64,000 nucleotides of DNA from Candidatus Parvarchaeum sp. (lineage in GTDB: Archaea; Nanobdellota; Nanobdellia; Pacearchaeales; GW2011-AR1), in assembly GCA_020724955.1 (NCBI GenBank), contig DYFY01000005.1, positions 452 through 64,451 on the forward strand, read 5' to 3'. The stretch's first letter is position 1. Each line of letters opens with the position of its first letter. The notes below the pieces were generated by a model. That model had not been told where the DNA came from, did no database searches, and saw nothing but the letters and a program-made list of their open reading frames with translations. Made by a program: the position numbers and the translations under genes. Shown here piece after piece: positions 16,440 to 20,972 of this stretch.

Positions 16440-16847
16440 GTGGATTTTGGAGACGTGGTAGAAAAAAAGCTTGCTTATGAAATAGAAAAGTTGCTGAACC
16501 TCGAGCCTGAGATTGAAAAGATTATTTTAGGAATAGGTTTGGACCTTTCTGAACTGTTATATAGAGGTTTTGGAGGAGACAGACTTGAACGTATGCGCAT
16601 GACTGGTACTGATAGGGATGACCCTTACCTATTTGCTGTTAGATTTAATGATCCGGAGAAGGGGGGCGGAATTTGCTACGCTGTTCGCAGGGGCTATGAG
16701 TTTAGAAATGTCCTTGGAGTTTTTGCTTTAGCAGTTTATGATGCTAACTGCCTCAGGCAAGAGGATACCTCTGGAGAGTTTTTCTCTTTTAAAAAGAGAA
16801 TAAGGCCCCCAGTAGTTTTAATTGAATTTGTTCCGATAACTCTATAA
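16440..16847 (+). CDS. Hypothetical protein, first gene of the lhr operon
   Basis: GTG start. The stop at 16845-16847 abuts the lhr ATG at 16848. No confident motif (contains LLYRGFGG). Confidence 0.5.
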   Translation: MDFGDVVEKKLAYEIEKLLNLEPEIEKIILGIGLDLSELLYRGFGGDRLERMRMTGTDRDDPYLFAVRFNDPEKGGGICYAVRRGYEFRNVLGVFALAVYDANCLRQEDTSGEFFSFKKRIRPPVVLIEFVPITL

Positions 16848-19463
16848 ATGGTTGATTCTGTTGAAAAAGGCAACATGACATCAGGCAGGATTGAATATCT
16901 TGAGCCTTATCGAGCTGAGGACGTGAAGAAGATCCTTGAGCCGATTGTTGAGGAATGGTTTTTTAACAAATTTGATGACTTTTCATTGACACAGCTTTAT
17001 GGCGTCAAGACAATATATGACAGGAAAAACATACTGATAAGTGCACCTACTGGAGGGACTAAAACGCTTACTGCTTTTCTTGGGATTATTAATTATTTGG
17101 TTGGTTTGGCTCTTAAGGGAGAGCTCGAAGACAAGATTTATGCTGTTTACACCTCGCCTCTTAAAGCACTCTCTAATGACATTTTTGTAAATTTAGAAAT
17201 GCCATTAAAAGAAATCAGGGAATTGGCTAAGAAAAAGAGTTTGAAAATGCAAGAAATACGAGTTGGATTAAGAACAGGAGACACTACTGCCAGCGAGAGG
17301 GCCGGGCACGCCAGGAAAGTGCCTCATATTTACGTTACAACCCCTGAAAGCTTGAGCATTGTGCTGACTACAAAAAAATTCGTGGATAATCTGAATGCTT
17401 TAGAGTTCATTATTGTAGATGAGATTCACGCAATGGCGAATAAAAGAGGAGTGTATTTATCTCTAACGCTTGAAAGGCTTGAAGAATTTAGCTTGATCAC
17501 GCCAGTCAGAATTGGACTTAGCGCTACTATCTCCCCAATTAATGAAATTGCCAAATTTTTAGCTGGAGAGGGAAGAGATTGCTTAATCGCGGATGTTAAA
17601 CTTAACAAGAAAATTGACATTGGGCTTATTTCCCCTGCCAAAAATCTGATTGAAGCAGACAGCGCTGAAAGCCAGAAAGAATTGTATAGAATTTTAGATA
17701 ATTTGATTGAGAATCATAAAACCACTTTGATATTTACTAACACCAGAGCGGCCACTGAGAGAATAATTCATTATCTAGACTTACATTTTCCAAAAAAATA
17801 TGAAGGTTTTATCGGTGCGCATCACTCGTCTATGAGCAAGGAAAAAAGATTTGAAATTGAGGACAAGCTGAGGAAGGGGGAGCTGAAAGTTGTTGTGACA
17901 AGTACAAGCTTGGAGCTGGGAATTGATATAGGAAATGTTGATCTTGTTGTTTTGCTTAGAAGTCCCAAGGGAGTTGCAAGAGCGTTGCAAAGAATAGGGA
18001 GAGCCGGACATAAACTGCACGAAAATCCTAAGGGGAGATTTGTTGTTTTGGATAGAGATGATTTGGTTGAATGTGGAGTTTTGATGAAAAACATGATTGA
18101 AAAGAAAATTGACAATGTGGAAATACCGAAAAATCCTCTGGATGTCCTGGCTCAACAGATATACGGAATGGCTATTTCTAAAGTTTGGAAAGCAGATGAC
18201 ATGCTGAAGACAATCAGAAGAAGTTATTGTTATTCTGATTTGAGCAAGGAGGATTTTTTGGCTGTTGTTTCTTATTTGGCTGGAGATTATGCTTTGGAAC
18301 ATAGGAATGTTTACGCTAAAATTTGGTATGAGCCCAGCACCGGAGAGATAGGGAAAAAGGGGAAGTTGGCCAGAATAATGTATATGACTAATATAGGGAC
18401 AATTCCGGAAGAGGGCTTTATCAGTGTTGTAATTTCTGCTCCTGTTGCTAAGATGGGGCAAGTTGTTGGAAAGATTGATGAAGCTTTTTTGGAGAAGATG
18501 AAACGCGGAGACGTTTTTGTTTTAGGAGGAGCTAAATATCAATTTATCAGAAGCCAGGGAATGAAAGCTTATGTTATCGCCGATGTTTCGAAAAATCCGA
18601 CAATACCGAGCTGGTTCAGCGAAATGCTGCCGTTGAGTTTTGATGTGGCTGTTGATATTGCAAGGTTCAGGGGCCTTGTTGCTGAAAGAATTAAAGATAA
18701 AGAAGAATGTTTGGAATTTATTAGTGAATATCTTTATTGTTCTGGAGAAGCTGCTGAACAAATCTATGAATATATGAAAGAACAGGCCAAGTTTTCTGAG
18801 ATACCGAGCGATAAAACAATTGTTGTTGAGAAATTTAAAGGAGACAAAGAATATTTGCTTTTTCATAGCATGTTTGGAAGACGCGTGAATGACGCTTTAT
18901 CCAGGGCTTATGGATTTGCAGCTGCGAGATTGAGGCACAGAGATATTGAAATAGGCATCAATGACAATGGATTTTTTATTGCGGGAGAGAAACTTGATGA
19001 GAACAAAATAATTAATTATGTTAATTACAAAAATTTGGAGTTGATTTTGAAGGAGGCTATAGAAAAAACTGATGTTTTACGAAGGAGGTTCAGGCATTGC
19101 GCATCCAGAAGTTTGATGATTCTTCGTTCGTATAAAGGAAGGACTAAGAGTGTTGGAAAACAGCAGATGCATTCTCATTTTTTGTTGGCTGCTGTAAAAA
19201 AAATAAGCAATGAGTTTCCTATTTTGCAGGAGGCACGGCGTGAAGTTCTGGAAGATGTTATGGACATAAAAAAAACTAAAGAGGTTTTAAGATGGATAGA
19301 AAGCGGGAAAACAAAAATTAAGAAAATCAGGACGCCAATGGTGTCTCCGTTTGGACTGAATTTGATTTTGCAGAGCCACGCTGATCTAATTAAAATGGAA
19401 GACAGAGCGGCTTTTCTGAAAAGAATGCATAAGCTACAGATGAGCATTATCGAGGGTAAATAG
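16848..19463 (+). CDS. lhr: Lhr-type (large helicase-related) SF2 helicase
   Basis: APTGGTKT, VDEIH, SATI, TNTR, TSSLELGID and QRIGRAGH motifs, plus the long Lhr-type C-terminal extension. Confidence 0.9.
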   Translation: MVDSVEKGNMTSGRIEYLEPYRAEDVKKILEPIVEEWFFNKFDDFSLTQLYGVKTIYDRKNILISAPTGGTKTLTAFLGIINYLVGLALKGELEDKIYAVYTSPLKALSNDIFVNLEMPLKEIRELAKKKSLKMQEIRVGLRTGDTTASERAGHARKVPHIYVTTPESLSIVLTTKKFVDNLNALEFIIVDEIHAMANKRGVYLSLTLERLEEFSLITPVRIGLSATISPINEIAKFLAGEGRDCLIADVKLNKKIDIGLISPAKNLIEADSAESQKELYRILDNLIENHKTTLIFTNTRAATERIIHYLDLHFPKKYEGFIGAHHSSMSKEKRFEIEDKLRKGELKVVVTSTSLELGIDIGNVDLVVLLRSPKGVARALQRIGRAGHKLHENPKGRFVVLDRDDLVECGVLMKNMIEKKIDNVEIPKNPLDVLAQQIYGMAISKVWKADDMLKTIRRSYCYSDLSKEDFLAVVSYLAGDYALEHRNVYAKIWYEPSTGEIGKKGKLARIMYMTNIGTIPEEGFISVVISAPVAKMGQVVGKIDEAFLEKMKRGDVFVLGGAKYQFIRSQGMKAYVIADVSKNPTIPSWFSEMLPLSFDVAVDIARFRGLVAERIKDKEECLEFISEYLYCSGEAAEQIYEYMKEQAKFSEIPSDKTIVVEKFKGDKEYLLFHSMFGRRVNDALSRAYGFAAARLRHRDIEIGINDNGFFIAGEKLDENKIINYVNYKNLELILKEAIEKTDVLRRRFRHCASRSLMILRSYKGRTKSVGKQQMHSHFLLAAVKKISNEFPILQEARREVLEDVMDIKKTKEVLRWIESGKTKIKKIRTPMVSPFGLNLILQSHADLIKMEDRAAFLKRMHKLQMSIIEGK

Positions 19464-19493
19464 GTTTAAAAACTGGATGAAAAAAGATTAGTT

Positions 19494-20216: not shown

Positions 20217-20240
20217 TTAGTCTTTTTCTTCTGGGTAATT

Positions 20241-20972
20241 ATGAAAATCAAATTTATTGGAAAATGTTTGTTGCTCGAGGAGAAGGGGAAGAGGGTTTTT
20301 GTAATTGGAGATTTGCACTTAGGGTATGTTGGGAGCATGAGAGAATCTGGAATTCTTGTTCCTTCTGGAATTTATAATGACATGATTAACGAGCTCGATA
20401 AGATTTTTGAAAATATTGGAAAAGCTGATAAAGTTGTTTTATTGGGGGATTTAAAACATGAGTTTGGCAGGATATTACAAGAGGAATGGAAGGAAGTTCT
20501 GGGCTTTATTGATTATCTAAGGGAAAAGTGCGGCGAAATTATTGTTGTGAGGGGAAATCACGATGCTACTTTAGACAGCATTTTAAAACAGCGAAACCTG
20601 AAAGGAGCCAGTTATTTTATCTGGGAAAACACGGCTTTTTTGCATGGAGACAGGGATTTTGATTTTGTAAATGGCAAAGAAATTAAAATTTGGGTTATTG
20701 GACATGCGCATCCTGCTGTTGTCATTGAAGAAAAAAGGGGAGGCAAAAAGGAAAAATACAAATGTTTTTTAGACGGCAAATATCTGGGGAAAAGAGTTAT
20801 TATTGTGCCTAGTTTTTTTAGTTTAAATGAAGGAACTGATGTGAGAGACCTGTCTGGAAATGATTTGGGGCTGGCATGGAATTTTGATTTAAAAAAATTT
20901 GATGTTAAAATAGCAGGAGATGGCTTGGAGGTTTTGGATTTTGGGAAACTCAAAGGATTGAGAAAGAGTTAG
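20241..20972 (+). CDS. Calcineurin-like metallophosphoesterase (MPE, Lhr-associated nuclease type)
   Basis: GDLHLG, LLGDLKHE, RGNHD, FLHGD and IGHAHP motifs. Confidence 0.8.
   Translation: MKIKFIGKCLLLEEKGKRVFVIGDLHLGYVGSMRESGILVPSGIYNDMINELDKIFENIGKADKVVLLGDLKHEFGRILQEEWKEVLGFIDYLREKCGEIIVVRGNHDATLDSILKQRNLKGASYFIWENTAFLHGDRDFDFVNGKEIKIWVIGHAHPAVVIEEKRGGKKEKYKCFLDGKYLGKRVIIVPSFFSLNEGTDVRDLSGNDLGLAWNFDLKKFDVKIAGDGLEVLDFGKLKGLRKS

What the first reader, a model, noticed from the sequence alone, without database searches (positions are those of the whole stretch)
16440..20972. Four-gene Lhr operon: small unknown ORF, Lhr, ART-like ORF, MPE nuclease
Four + strand genes are packed tightly. The stop of the ORF at 16440 abuts the lhr ATG, and the remaining gaps are about 30 and 24 bp. 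An lhr-mpe pairing (Lhr-core helicase with a metallophosphoesterase DNA nuclease) is known from bacterial operons. Here that pair is split by the ART-like ORF and preceded by a 135-aa ORF of unknown fold, which contains LLYRGFGG; I do not regard this as sufficient for any call. This suggests a repair or defence module that combines translocase, nuclease and a possible NAD+-dependent modifier.
Basis: partly seen in the sequence, partly recalled or inferred. Interest (0 to 1): 0.65.

Follow-up and report, generated by a model that had tools for sequence, protein, structure and literature searches.

The report
Known lhr–mpe pair with lineage-specific inserts
The four tightly packed genes are real, but only the helicase (Lhr) and nuclease (MPE) form a conserved and already known archaeal repair pair; the two unknown genes are one-off insertions into variable slots beside lhr, each with its own predicted promoter, and are not conserved partners.

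Summary
Observation confirmed. Four + strand ORFs lie at 16440/16455-16847, 16848-19463, 19494-20216 and 20241-20972, with a TAA|ATG abutment and gaps of 30 and 24 nt. Lhr-core (NF010338, 1097 bits) and an archaeal SbcD-related metallophosphoesterase (TIGR00024) are securely identified; this pairing is already published for DPANN archaea.

The four-part module reading is not supported. In about 50 related genomes (Lhr 58-82% identical) the surrounding nine-gene block is conserved, but none has a homolog of ORF1 or ORF3. In 15 loci the lhr stop overlaps the mpe start (mostly ATGA). In 24 of 40 loci the junction holds unrelated cargo, and the two states are intermixed on the Lhr tree.

ORF1 is an orphan: this one genome among about 15 billion proteins. 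It still looks coding. ORF3 belongs to an unannotated family of about 70 members, scattered across CPR bacteria, DPANN and others, and never next to lhr or mpe in 16 independent contexts.

In this genome TTTAWAWA starts exactly 29 nt before leaderless start codons. ORF1 (from GTG 16455) and ORF3 each have a perfect box, and mpe has a conserved TATA-like element.

"ART-like" for ORF3 rests on an invariant YHGTS motif and weak, non-significant matches to KptA, DarT and PARP. It is plausible but unproven.

The parts
16103..16384 (-). Conserved divergent neighbour: 93-aa winged-helix-like protein (wHTH93). It forms the left edge of the upstream variable slot.
   Evidence: Homologs lie directly upstream of lhr on the opposite strand in about 50 related loci. 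Pfam hits are weak only (DUF7342, HTH_69).
16406..16413 (.). TTTTTATA element in the wHTH/lhr divergent intergenic region. It lies 29 nt from the wHTH93 start on the minus strand and is probably the ancestral, possibly bidirectional, TATA box.
   Evidence: GTTTTTATAGTTT recurs upstream of lhr in many relatives. The region is about 93% identical to L069 over 29 nt. Its role as a promoter is inferred.
16426..16433 (+). TATA box TTTAAAAA (within GGTTTAAAAA), exactly 29 nt upstream of GTG 16455. Predicted leaderless promoter of ORF1, and by read-through of lhr.
   Evidence: Window-wide rule: 12 of 59 TTTAWAWA occurrences start 29 nt before the start codon of an ORF of at least 60 aa, against about 0.5 per other offset.
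16455..16847 (+). ORF1, an orphan small protein of 130 aa (135 aa if started at GTG 16440). Lineage-specific cargo of the slot upstream of lhr.
   Evidence: The only matches among 5.8 billion clusters and 1.84 billion representatives are the same gene from the same genome. The single marginal hit, P0071, is a repeat-protein artefact. Codon usage is host-like. The AF2 single-sequence model has pLDDT 38 and is uninformative. There is no tblastn hit in any related locus.
16848..19463 (+). lhr: Lhr-core (aLhr2-type) SF2 helicase of 871 aa, with a clade-specific Walker A APTGGTKT, DEIH, and QRIGRAGH.
   Evidence: NF010338 at 1096.7 bits; Pfam DEAD, Helicase_C, WH_Lhr and DEAD_assoc. Motifs.
19465..19472 (+). 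TATA box TTTAAAAA (within TAGGTTTAAAAA, overlapping the lhr stop), exactly 29 nt upstream of the ORF3 ATG. Predicted own leaderless promoter of ORF3.
   Evidence: The same left-boundary sequence, TAGGTTTAAAAA, precedes a different cargo ORF in L035/L037.
19494..20216 (+). ORF3: 240-aa member of an unannotated family of about 70 proteins with invariant H32-G33-T34-S35 and G174. Possibly ART-fold. Lineage-specific cargo of the lhr-mpe slot.
   Evidence: family and conservation. (AF2 pLDDT 92.6, pTM 0.90). (only weak KptA/DarT/PARP similarity). (contexts without lhr or mpe). GC3 is 0.257 against 0.34-0.37 for its neighbours.
20213..20229 (+). Conserved right boundary of the slot: TTAATTAG, which contains the ORF3 stop TAA at 20214-20216, followed by the T-rich run TCTTTTTCT. 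TTAATTAG starts 28 nt before the mpe ATG. It is probably a TATA-like mpe promoter, a cargo terminator, or both.
   Evidence: TTAATTA[GC] followed by 20 nt and then ATG is shared by WIN, L018, L025/26/61, L044, L032, L033 and L035/37, although their cargo differs. Function is inferred.
20241..20972 (+). mpe: binuclear metallophosphoesterase of 243 aa, archaeal SbcD-related. All metal-binding motifs are present (GDLH, GDLKH, GNHD, LHGD, GHAH).
   Evidence: TIGR00024 at 124.8 bits (cut-off 115.2); Pfam Metallophos. Motifs.

Best explanation
The conserved functional unit is the two-gene lhr-mpe pair. Lhr-core is a 3'-to-5' ssDNA translocase/helicase, and MPE is a Mn2+-dependent ssDNA endonuclease. 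The pair sits in a conserved block near orc1 and polD in a DPANN-like archaeon. In the ancestral arrangement the lhr stop overlaps the mpe start (ATGA), which suggests translational coupling, and lhr lies 25-70 nt from a divergent wHTH gene. Both flanks of lhr are variable slots in this clade, and different lineages carry unrelated genes there. In this genome the upstream slot holds ORF1, an orphan protein placed behind a conserved TATA box that in a relative (L069) drives a different small ORF; its stop abuts the lhr ATG, so lhr is probably translated by termination-reinitiation. The lhr-mpe slot holds ORF3, a horizontally scattered gene of an uncharacterised family that may have an ART-like fold. 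ORF3 has its own leaderless promoter overlapping the lhr stop. mpe, now uncoupled from lhr, is preceded by a conserved TATA-like element. ORF1 and ORF3 are therefore passengers, not conserved partners of Lhr/MPE. Shown: the gene identities, the synteny, the absence of ORF1 and ORF3 from relatives, the variability of the junctions and the promoter-spacing rule. Inferred: which promoters are actually used, the coupling, and the biochemical roles, which are taken from characterised bacterial and archaeal homologs.
For: The block up208/up235/wHTH/lhr/mpe/dn151/PRC/orc1/polD is conserved in about 50 loci with Lhr 58-82% identical, with zero tblastn hits for ORF1 or ORF3. 15 loci have lhr/mpe overlaps of -4 to -11 nt. 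Inserts occur in 24/40 loci at lhr-to-mpe and 17/50 at wHTH-to-lhr, against 0/23 at orc1-to-polD and 2/29 at dn151-to-PRC. The cargo falls into more than 60 unrelated clusters. It includes a GHKL ATPase, PRPP synthetase-like proteins, a LAGLIDADG endonuclease, a zeta-toxin-like kinase, a methyltransferase and many orphans, with no remote similarity to ORF1 or ORF3. Insert and no-insert states are intermixed on the Lhr NJ tree; in the window's own subclade WIN, L018 and L021 carry different cargo and L019 carries none. ORF3 homologs occur in Saccharibacteria, Staskawiczbacteria, Roizmanbacteria, Woesearchaeota, Methanosarcinales and Proteobacteria, without lhr or mpe nearby. The slot boundaries are conserved around different cargo. 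The literature describes aLhr2 next to a TIGR00024 phosphoesterase in DPANN (PMC8301817), two-gene Lhr-core/MPE clusters in archaea (PMC7826289), and the context of archaeal Lhr-core with MPE (PMC7437997).
Against: Tight spacing and a shared strand allow co-transcription of all four genes; no obvious terminator follows lhr, and read-through from the ORF1 promoter cannot be excluded. A recently inserted gene can be functionally co-opted, and non-synteny elsewhere does not rule out cooperation here. ORF1's host-like codon usage shows it is not a very recent foreign arrival. Promoter calls are sequence predictions without transcript data. Some related loci are near-duplicates, so the locus counts overstate the number of independent events.
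Confidence: 0.8

Rival explanations
1. One reading: the four genes form one integrated repair or defence module, in which an ART-like enzyme (ORF3) and a small adaptor (ORF1) work with the Lhr translocase and the MPE nuclease.
For: The genes share a strand with spacings of 0, 30 and 24 nt. ORF3 carries an HGT-type motif like NAD+-using ART enzymes. The Lhr core resembles helicases of defence systems such as DpdJ and BrxH in PADLOC.
Against: No related genome has ORF1 or ORF3 at lhr/mpe. The ORF3 family is never near lhr or mpe elsewhere. The same slots hold unrelated cargo in sister lineages. ORF3 and probably mpe have their own promoter elements. The PADLOC helicase hits reflect generic SF2/Lhr similarity, and ORF1 and ORF3 have no PADLOC hit.
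Confidence: 0.08
2. ORF1 is not a functional protein gene. It would be a chance or decaying open frame, or merely a translated leader upstream of lhr.
For: It has no homolog in about 15 billion proteins. The AF2 model has pLDDT 38. It is in frame with lhr and separated by a single TAA.
Against: The codon-usage score of 0.279 is best of six frames and equals that of neighbouring real genes. A perfect TATA box sits at the genome's exact leaderless spacing. A 130-135-codon open frame is improbable by chance at 37% GC. Small co-oriented ORFs occupy the same slot in many relatives, several with their own TATA at -29.
Confidence: 0.2
3. ORF3 is the toxin or effector of a small conflict system, for example an ART-type toxin paired elsewhere with a NUDIX or other antidote, and it landed here as a solitary copy.
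For: A NUDIX gene lies immediately downstream in two lineages (P0002 loci and P0022). Family neighbourhoods often contain accessory or conflict genes: MazE, ParE, AbiEii, GIY-YIG, PLDc_2, AAA_15, Lar and HTH_17. The taxonomic distribution is patchy.
Against: NUDIX adjacency occurs in only 2 of about 14-16 independent contexts, and no partner recurs. There are no PADLOC or PHROGs hits and no homologs in the phage or plasmid collections. Some contexts are plainly housekeeping. No partner gene is present in the window.
Confidence: 0.15
4. The lhr-mpe junction is a dedicated cassette site with conserved ends that are recognised by a site-specific recombination system, in the manner of an integron, and not simply a permissive spot shuffled by homologous recombination between strains.
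For: Conserved left (TAGGTTTAAAAA) and right (C[CT]TTAATTA[GC]T plus a T-run) boundaries flank different cargo. Even a very recent insert (L033, sister of the overlapping L034) carries the right-boundary element.
Against: No integrase or recombinase is present in the conserved block. The boundary elements look like ordinary TATA boxes at the leaderless spacing. Allele exchange by homologous recombination through the conserved lhr and mpe flanks explains the pattern more simply.
Confidence: 0.1

Closest known systems
Lhr-core / MPE two-gene DNA-repair cluster (Ejaz & Shuman 2018, cited in PMC7826289; aLhr2 with the TIGR00024 phosphoesterase in DPANN and other archaea, PMC8301817)
   Same: The same two protein families on the same strand. 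Lhr has all four core domains and MPE has all the metallophosphoesterase motifs. In most relatives of this genome the two genes overlap by 4 nt.
   Different: Here the pair is split by a 777-nt insert that carries an unrelated gene with its own promoter, and lhr is preceded by an orphan ORF. The Lhr Walker A reads APTGGTKT instead of APTGSGKT throughout this clade.
H-H-h / H-Y-E clades of the ADP-ribosyltransferase superfamily (Tpt1/KptA, DarT, PARP catalytic domain)
   Same: ORF3's invariant I-G-Y-H-G-T-S, followed by a helix and G-x-L-P-G, aligns with the KptA [22 protein letters not shown] motif (1wfx). The predicted order of strands is compatible with a split-sheet ART core. DarT1, KptA and PARP1 are the only families that recur among the weak Foldseek hits.
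   Different: No match is significant: Foldseek E >= 1.7 with TM about 0.2, hhalign probability 2%, and no Pfam ART family at E <= 1 for any of 67 members. An ~85-residue helical insert (87-170) lies inside the putative core.
Variable hotspots or islands between conserved core genes (accessory and defence-gene hotspots described in bacteria; my general knowledge, not tested against a specific paper here)
   Same: Conserved flanking genes, lineage-specific unrelated cargo, and a mix of selfish, toxin-like, metabolic and orphan genes.
   Different: The slots are very small, usually one or two genes, and lie inside what is otherwise a translationally coupled operon. The boundaries coincide with leaderless TATA boxes. 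The host is a DPANN-like archaeon. No integrase is involved.

Membership tests
Lhr-core (aLhr2-type) helicase | SF2 RecA-like domains with motif I (Walker A), motif II (DEIH) and motif VI | tested here: met
   Pfam DEAD 1.3e-23 and Helicase_C 1.8e-20. DEIH at aa 191 and QRIGRAGH at aa 381. The Walker A is the variant APTGGTKT, conserved in 57/59 close relatives.
Lhr-core (aLhr2-type) helicase | Lhr-specific winged-helix domain and Domain 4 (DEAD_assoc) | tested here: met
   WH_Lhr 2.5e-36 and DEAD_assoc 9.5e-57. NF010338 equivalog at 1096.7 bits against a cut-off of 849.
Lhr-core (aLhr2-type) helicase | 3'-to-5' ATP-dependent translocation and unwinding | not testable with these tools
   Inferred from characterised homologs (PMC5758891, PMC7437997, PMC8301817).
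MPE / archaeal SbcD-related binuclear metallophosphoesterase (TIGR00024, COG1407) | Metallophosphoesterase motifs D-x-H, G-D, G-N-H-[DE], H and G-H-x-H | tested here: met
   GDLH at 23, GDLKH at 69, GNHD at 105, LHGD at 134 and GHAH at 154. TIGR00024 at 124.8 bits against 115.2, and Pfam Metallophos 2.8e-11.
MPE / archaeal SbcD-related binuclear metallophosphoesterase (TIGR00024, COG1407) | Mn2+-dependent ssDNA endonuclease activity | not testable with these tools
   Known for P. putida MPE (PMC7826289). The bacterial ligase-associated PdeM model, TIGR04123, scores below its cut-off here (75.5 against 150).
lhr-mpe operon | lhr and mpe adjacent on the same strand | tested here: met
   mpe lies downstream of lhr in the window and in about 40 related loci.
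lhr-mpe operon | Direct coupling of the two cistrons (overlapping stop and start), as in the clade's ancestral state | tested here: not met
   15 relatives have overlaps of -4 to -11 nt. In the window the two cistrons are 777 nt apart, with ORF3 and two promoter-like elements in between.
ADP-ribosyltransferase superfamily (ORF3) | Significant sequence or profile match to an ART family | tested here: not met
   No Pfam family for any of 67 members at E <= 1. No PDB sequence hit at E < 0.18, and KptA 1wfx at E = 2.6. hhalign against E. coli KptA aligns 29 columns with probability 2%.
ADP-ribosyltransferase superfamily (ORF3) | Structural match to the ART split beta-sheet fold | tested here: inconclusive
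   The model is high-confidence (pLDDT 92.6). The best Foldseek ART hits (DarT1 8baq, TkoKptA 9ld4, PARP1 6bhv) have E 1.7-5 and TM about 0.2. BFVD gave nothing significant.
ADP-ribosyltransferase superfamily (ORF3) | Motif triad: H (or R) on beta-1, Y/H/S on beta-2, and a catalytic E/D/Q on beta-5 | tested here: inconclusive
   H32 within YHGTS is invariant at the end of predicted beta-1. F68 (78%) lies on beta-2. E216 is only 60% conserved, while D198 is 90% acidic at the start of a strand. The spatial arrangement could not be inspected.
ADP-ribosyltransferase superfamily (ORF3) | NAD+ binding and ADP-ribosyl transfer | not testable with these tools
   Needs biochemistry.
R-S-E ADP-ribosyltransferase (ORF1, from LLYRGFGG) | The R, S-T-S and E-x-E motifs, plus any family or fold match | tested here: not met
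   Only the YRG tripeptide is present. There is no family hit, no homologs, and the model is unusable.
Known anti-phage defence systems (PADLOC) | Matches to the components of a defined system | tested here: not met
   ORF1 and ORF3 have no hit, and MPE has only PDC-S10 at 4.9e-4. The Lhr hits to DpdJ and BrxH are generic helicase similarity with no partner genes present.
Integron-like cassette site | An adjacent integrase or recombinase and attC-like structured ends | tested here: not met
   No recombinase is present in the conserved nine-gene block. The boundary elements are TATA-like boxes. Secondary structure of the ends was not examined.

The most novel reading that the evidence does not exclude
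ORF3 founds an undescribed enzyme family. It has an invariant I-G-Y-H-G-T-S motif, a confidently predicted fold with no significant neighbour in the PDB or BFVD, and may be a very divergent ART-type NAD+-using enzyme. The family moves between CPR bacteria, DPANN archaea and other prokaryotes as a stand-alone conflict or stress gene. The flanks of lhr in this archaeal clade act as small promoter-bounded cassette slots that capture such genes. In this genome ORF3 may additionally have been co-opted to act on the DNA or protein substrates of Lhr/MPE.
Probability: 0.12. Interest if true: 0.6.

Novelty: new variant of a known kind. Interest (0 to 1): 0.3.

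Why it matters
The main value is corrective. Tight same-strand packing in a compact archaeal genome does not by itself indicate a functional module. Comparative synteny shows the conserved unit is the already known lhr-mpe pair. Three by-products may be useful. First, a very sharp leaderless-promoter rule (TATA box 29 nt before the start codon) lets transcription units be predicted from sequence in this lineage. Second, the flanks of lhr, and especially the normally overlapping lhr-mpe junction, are recurrent insertion slots with conserved boundaries and unrelated cargo; this gives a small natural system for studying gene gain in DPANN-like genomes. 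Third, ORF3 defines a family of about 70 uncharacterised proteins with an invariant YHGTS motif and a confident structure prediction, which makes it a reasonable candidate for biochemical testing with NAD+.

Tried and rejected
1. ORF1 as a partial duplication of the lhr 5' end. The N-termini look alike by eye (VD..VEK, IE.L.EP), but local alignment against 2000 shuffles gives p = 0.13-0.30, and there is no DNA similarity. Rejected.

2. ORF1 related to the 2776-aa protein P0071. The E-value of 2e-4 comes from 4+ tandem repeats matching one 41-residue stretch. Treated as an artefact.

3. Stop-codon recoding or read-through fusion of ORF1 with Lhr. TAA is the commonest stop codon in the window's long ORFs, and relatives' Lhr proteins start at the equivalent of ATG 16848. 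There is no support. The shared frame has a 1-in-3 chance expectation.

4. Remote homology between ORF1 or ORF3 and the cargo ORFs in the same slots of relatives. Permissive blastp and phmmer --max found nothing, and none of the cargo ORFs carries a YHGT or YRG motif.

5. NUDIX as a conserved partner of ORF3. It is adjacent in only 2 of about 14-16 contexts.

6. ORF3 on phages or plasmids. tblastn found no match in either collection, and PHROGs gave none.

7. The sigma-70 promoter and intrinsic-terminator scan was uninformative for an archaeon, with counts close to shuffled expectation.

8. The single-sequence AF2 model of ORF1 was unusable, so no fold search was run on it.

9. GGTTTAAAAA as an over-represented repeat. 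With one mismatch allowed there are 27 matches against 20.4 expected, which is not significant. Its meaning lies in the fixed spacing to start codons.

Full report
OBSERVATION. The four + strand ORFs exist as described: ORF1 at 16440-16847 (135 aa, GTG start), lhr at 16848-19463 (871 aa), ORF3 at 19494-20216 (240 aa) and mpe at 20241-20972 (243 aa). The ORF1 stop TAA (16845-16847) directly abuts the lhr ATG, and the two ORFs are in the same frame. The other gaps are 30 nt and 24 nt. The surroundings are archaeal: Orc1/Cdc6 at 22356 and an ORF at 23561 that I take, from its sequence and my own knowledge, to be the small subunit of DNA polymerase D.

IDENTITIES. Lhr matches the NCBIfam equivalog NF010338 at 1096.7 bits (cut-off 849) and Pfam DEAD, Helicase_C, WH_Lhr and DEAD_assoc. 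MPE passes TIGR00024 'SbcD_rel_arch' (124.8 bits against 115.2) and Pfam Metallophos, and it has all the metal-binding motifs. ORF1 and ORF3 match nothing in Pfam, NCBIfam, PADLOC or PHROGs.

ORF1 IS AN ORPHAN BUT LOOKS CODING. A word-indexed search of 5.8 billion protein clusters found only itself. An exhaustive phmmer search of 1.84 billion representatives found itself plus one marginal hit, which is an artefact of a tandem-repeat protein. The exact-sequence look-up shows that the 135-aa and 130-aa versions are the same gene from the same genome, called with different starts. Its codon-usage log-odds is 0.279. That is the best of its six frames and equal to its neighbours (Lhr 0.301, MPE 0.314). 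The single-sequence AF2 model is unusable (pLDDT 38). The LLYRGFGG peptide supports no assignment.

ORF3 BELONGS TO AN UNANNOTATED, SCATTERED FAMILY. A single-sequence search found two homologs. A three-sequence profile found 69 proteins, mostly 195-270 aa, none with a Pfam domain or an informative name. In the 67-sequence alignment, H32-G33-T34-S35 and G174 are invariant. I29, G30, Y31, G46 and A98 are at least 90% conserved. F68, P70, Y97, H105, D198 (90% acidic), G206, G214, P217 and E222 are well conserved. E216 is only 60% conserved. Genome hits come from Saccharibacteria, Roizmanbacteria, other Patescibacteria, Woesearchaeota, Methanosarcinales and Proteobacteria.

AlphaFold2 with this alignment gives a confident model (pLDDT 92.6, pTM 0.90). 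It has six main strands and an ~85-residue helical insert. Foldseek finds no significant neighbour in the PDB (best E = 0.58) or in BFVD (best E = 0.32). The only fold that recurs among the weak PDB hits is the ART fold: DarT1 8baq, TkoKptA 9ld4 and several PARP1 catalytic domains, with E 1.7-5 and TM about 0.2. A profile search of PDB sequences gives nothing significant; A. pernix KptA (1wfx) appears at E = 2.6 over the HGTS region. hhalign against E. coli KptA aligns only IGYHGTSLEAI...G.LPG with [22 protein letters not shown], 29 columns at probability 2%. None of the 67 members touches a Pfam ART family at E <= 1. 'ART-like' is therefore a consistent lead and not a result.

COMPARATIVE SYNTENY DECIDES THE OPERON QUESTION. 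A metagenome scan with Lhr returned 80 loci, about 55 of them with Lhr 58-82% identical. Mapping the window's genes onto them shows a conserved block: up208, up235(-), wHTH93(-), lhr, mpe, dn151(-), PRC(-), orc1, polD. Across all of these loci there is not one tblastn hit for ORF1 or ORF3. In 15 loci the lhr stop overlaps the mpe start by 4-11 nt, mostly as ATGA, and the wHTH-lhr intergenic region can be as short as 23-70 nt.

In the remaining loci both junctions carry inserts of 0.1-3.5 kb. Inserts are present in 24/40 loci at lhr-to-mpe and 17/50 at wHTH-to-lhr, compared with 0/23 at orc1-to-polD and 2/29 at dn151-to-PRC. The insert ORFs fall into more than 60 mutually unrelated clusters. 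They include a GHKL-type ATPase, PRPP-synthetase-like proteins, a LAGLIDADG endonuclease, a zeta-toxin/AAA_33 kinase, an MTS methyltransferase and many orphans. None is even remotely similar to ORF1 or ORF3.

On an Lhr neighbour-joining tree the overlap and insert states are intermixed. L034 (overlap) and L033 (insert) are close sisters. In the window's own subclade WIN, L018 and L021 each carry different cargo and L019 carries none.

Conversely, the ORF3 family was examined in 16 independent contexts outside this genome, and none has Lhr, MPE or ORF1 nearby. Those neighbourhoods have no constant partner. NUDIX is adjacent in two lineages only. They often contain accessory or conflict genes: MazE, ParE, AbiEii, GIY-YIG, PLDc_2, AAA_15, Lar and HTH_17.

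PROMOTER ARCHITECTURE (PREDICTED). In the window, TTTAWAWA starts exactly 29 nt before the start codon of an ORF of at least 60 aa in 12 of 59 occurrences, against about 0.5 at every other offset from 10 to 59. This is the signature of leaderless mRNAs with a fixed TATA-to-start distance. Two of the twelve are ours. TTTAAAAA at 16426 precedes GTG 16455, the 130-aa start of ORF1. TTTAAAAA at 19465 precedes ATG 19494 of ORF3, and its GG extension overlaps the lhr stop.

lhr (16848) and mpe (20241) lack a perfect box. mpe is, however, preceded by TTAATTAG followed by 20 nt and then ATG, with a T-rich run in between. The same element at the same spacing occurs upstream of mpe in L018, L025/26/61, L044, L032, L033 and L035/37, although their cargo differs. 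The left boundary TAGGTTTAAAAA is shared with L035/37. Many cargo ORFs in relatives also have their own TATA at -29. Upstream of ORF1, the window and L069 share TATAGTTGTGGGAAGGTTTAAAAAT (24 of 25 positions) and then diverge into unrelated ORFs.

The most likely organisation is therefore as follows. ORF1 and lhr share a transcript from a promoter conserved in the slot, with lhr translated by reinitiation at TAA|ATG. ORF3 is transcribed from its own promoter. mpe is expressed from its own TATA-like element, by read-through, or both. All of this is inferred from sequence; the sigma-70 and hairpin scan is not applicable to an archaeon.

HOW IT WORKS (BEST ACCOUNT). The conserved machine is Lhr-core plus MPE. 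The roles come from characterised homologs: a 3'-to-5' translocase/helicase acting on forks and RNA:DNA hybrids (PMC5758891, PMC7437997, PMC8301817) and a Mn2+-dependent ssDNA endonuclease (PMC7826289). The literature already records two-gene Lhr-core/MPE clusters in archaea (PMC7826289). It specifically records a TIGR00024 phosphoesterase next to aLhr2 in DPANN genomes (PMC8301817). ORF1 and ORF3 are passengers in two variable slots. ORF3 is most likely a stand-alone enzyme acquired horizontally; its GC3 is 0.257 against 0.34-0.37 for its neighbours. It may be a divergent NAD+-utilising ART-fold protein. ORF1 is a lineage-restricted small protein of unknown role. Functional co-option with Lhr/MPE is not excluded, but nothing here supports it.

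NOVELTY AND SCORE. The lhr-mpe pair is known. The four-gene arrangement is a single-genome variant produced by insertions. I rate it 'new variant of a known kind' with interest 0.3. The residual interest lies in three things: the uncharacterised YHGTS family, the conserved-boundary insertion slots at lhr, and the sharp leaderless-promoter rule.

Noticed in passing
window 16848-19463 (Lhr aa 66-73), and L018-L097: The Lhr Walker A motif is APTGGTKT, with Thr instead of the usual Gly immediately before the Lys. It is present in 57 of 59 close relatives, whereas 17 distant (~35% identical) homologs have the canonical APTGSGKT.
   Followed up: partly
whole window; for example 14424, 16455, 19494, 21424(-), 21757(-), 31156, 46524, 60395: There is a sharp leaderless-promoter rule. 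The TATA-like octamer TTTAWAWA starts exactly 29 nt upstream of start codons in 12 of 59 occurrences, against about 0.5 at other offsets. The same spacing is seen before many ORFs in related loci.
   Followed up: yes
L066:2229-3632 and L067 (equivalent position): In two related loci, Lhr is interrupted in frame at about residue 381 (motif VI, QRIGRAGH) by a 468-aa intein with Intein_splicing and LAGLIDADG_3 domains.
   Followed up: yes
L018-L097, the junctions flanking lhr (equivalent to window 16385-16847 and 19464-20240); also up235-to-wHTH (window 16079-16102): Three adjacent junctions of an otherwise rigid nine-gene block are insertion-prone: 21/47, 17/50 and 24/40 loci carry inserts. The cargo is unrelated between lineages. 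Boundary sequences are conserved, and the insert states are intermixed on the Lhr tree.
   Followed up: partly
L056:2254-3285 and L056:1619-2146: In one relative the slot upstream of lhr holds a free-standing LAGLIDADG endonuclease gene that ends at the lhr start, together with a zeta-toxin/AAA_33-like kinase.
   Followed up: no
window 20969-21424 (-) and 21497-21757 (-): A conserved 151-aa ORF with no family match converges on mpe, overlapping its stop by 4 nt. It is followed by a PRC-barrel protein. Both are conserved across the clade and both have TATA boxes at -29. They lie between mpe and orc1, so the variable ~400-850-nt PRC-orc1 spacer may contain the replication origin.
   Followed up: no
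L003:1797-2333, L099:4923-5144: A NUDIX hydrolase gene lies immediately downstream of ORF3-family genes in two divergent lineages. This would fit an ADP-ribose-related function, but it is not a general feature of the family.
   Followed up: partly
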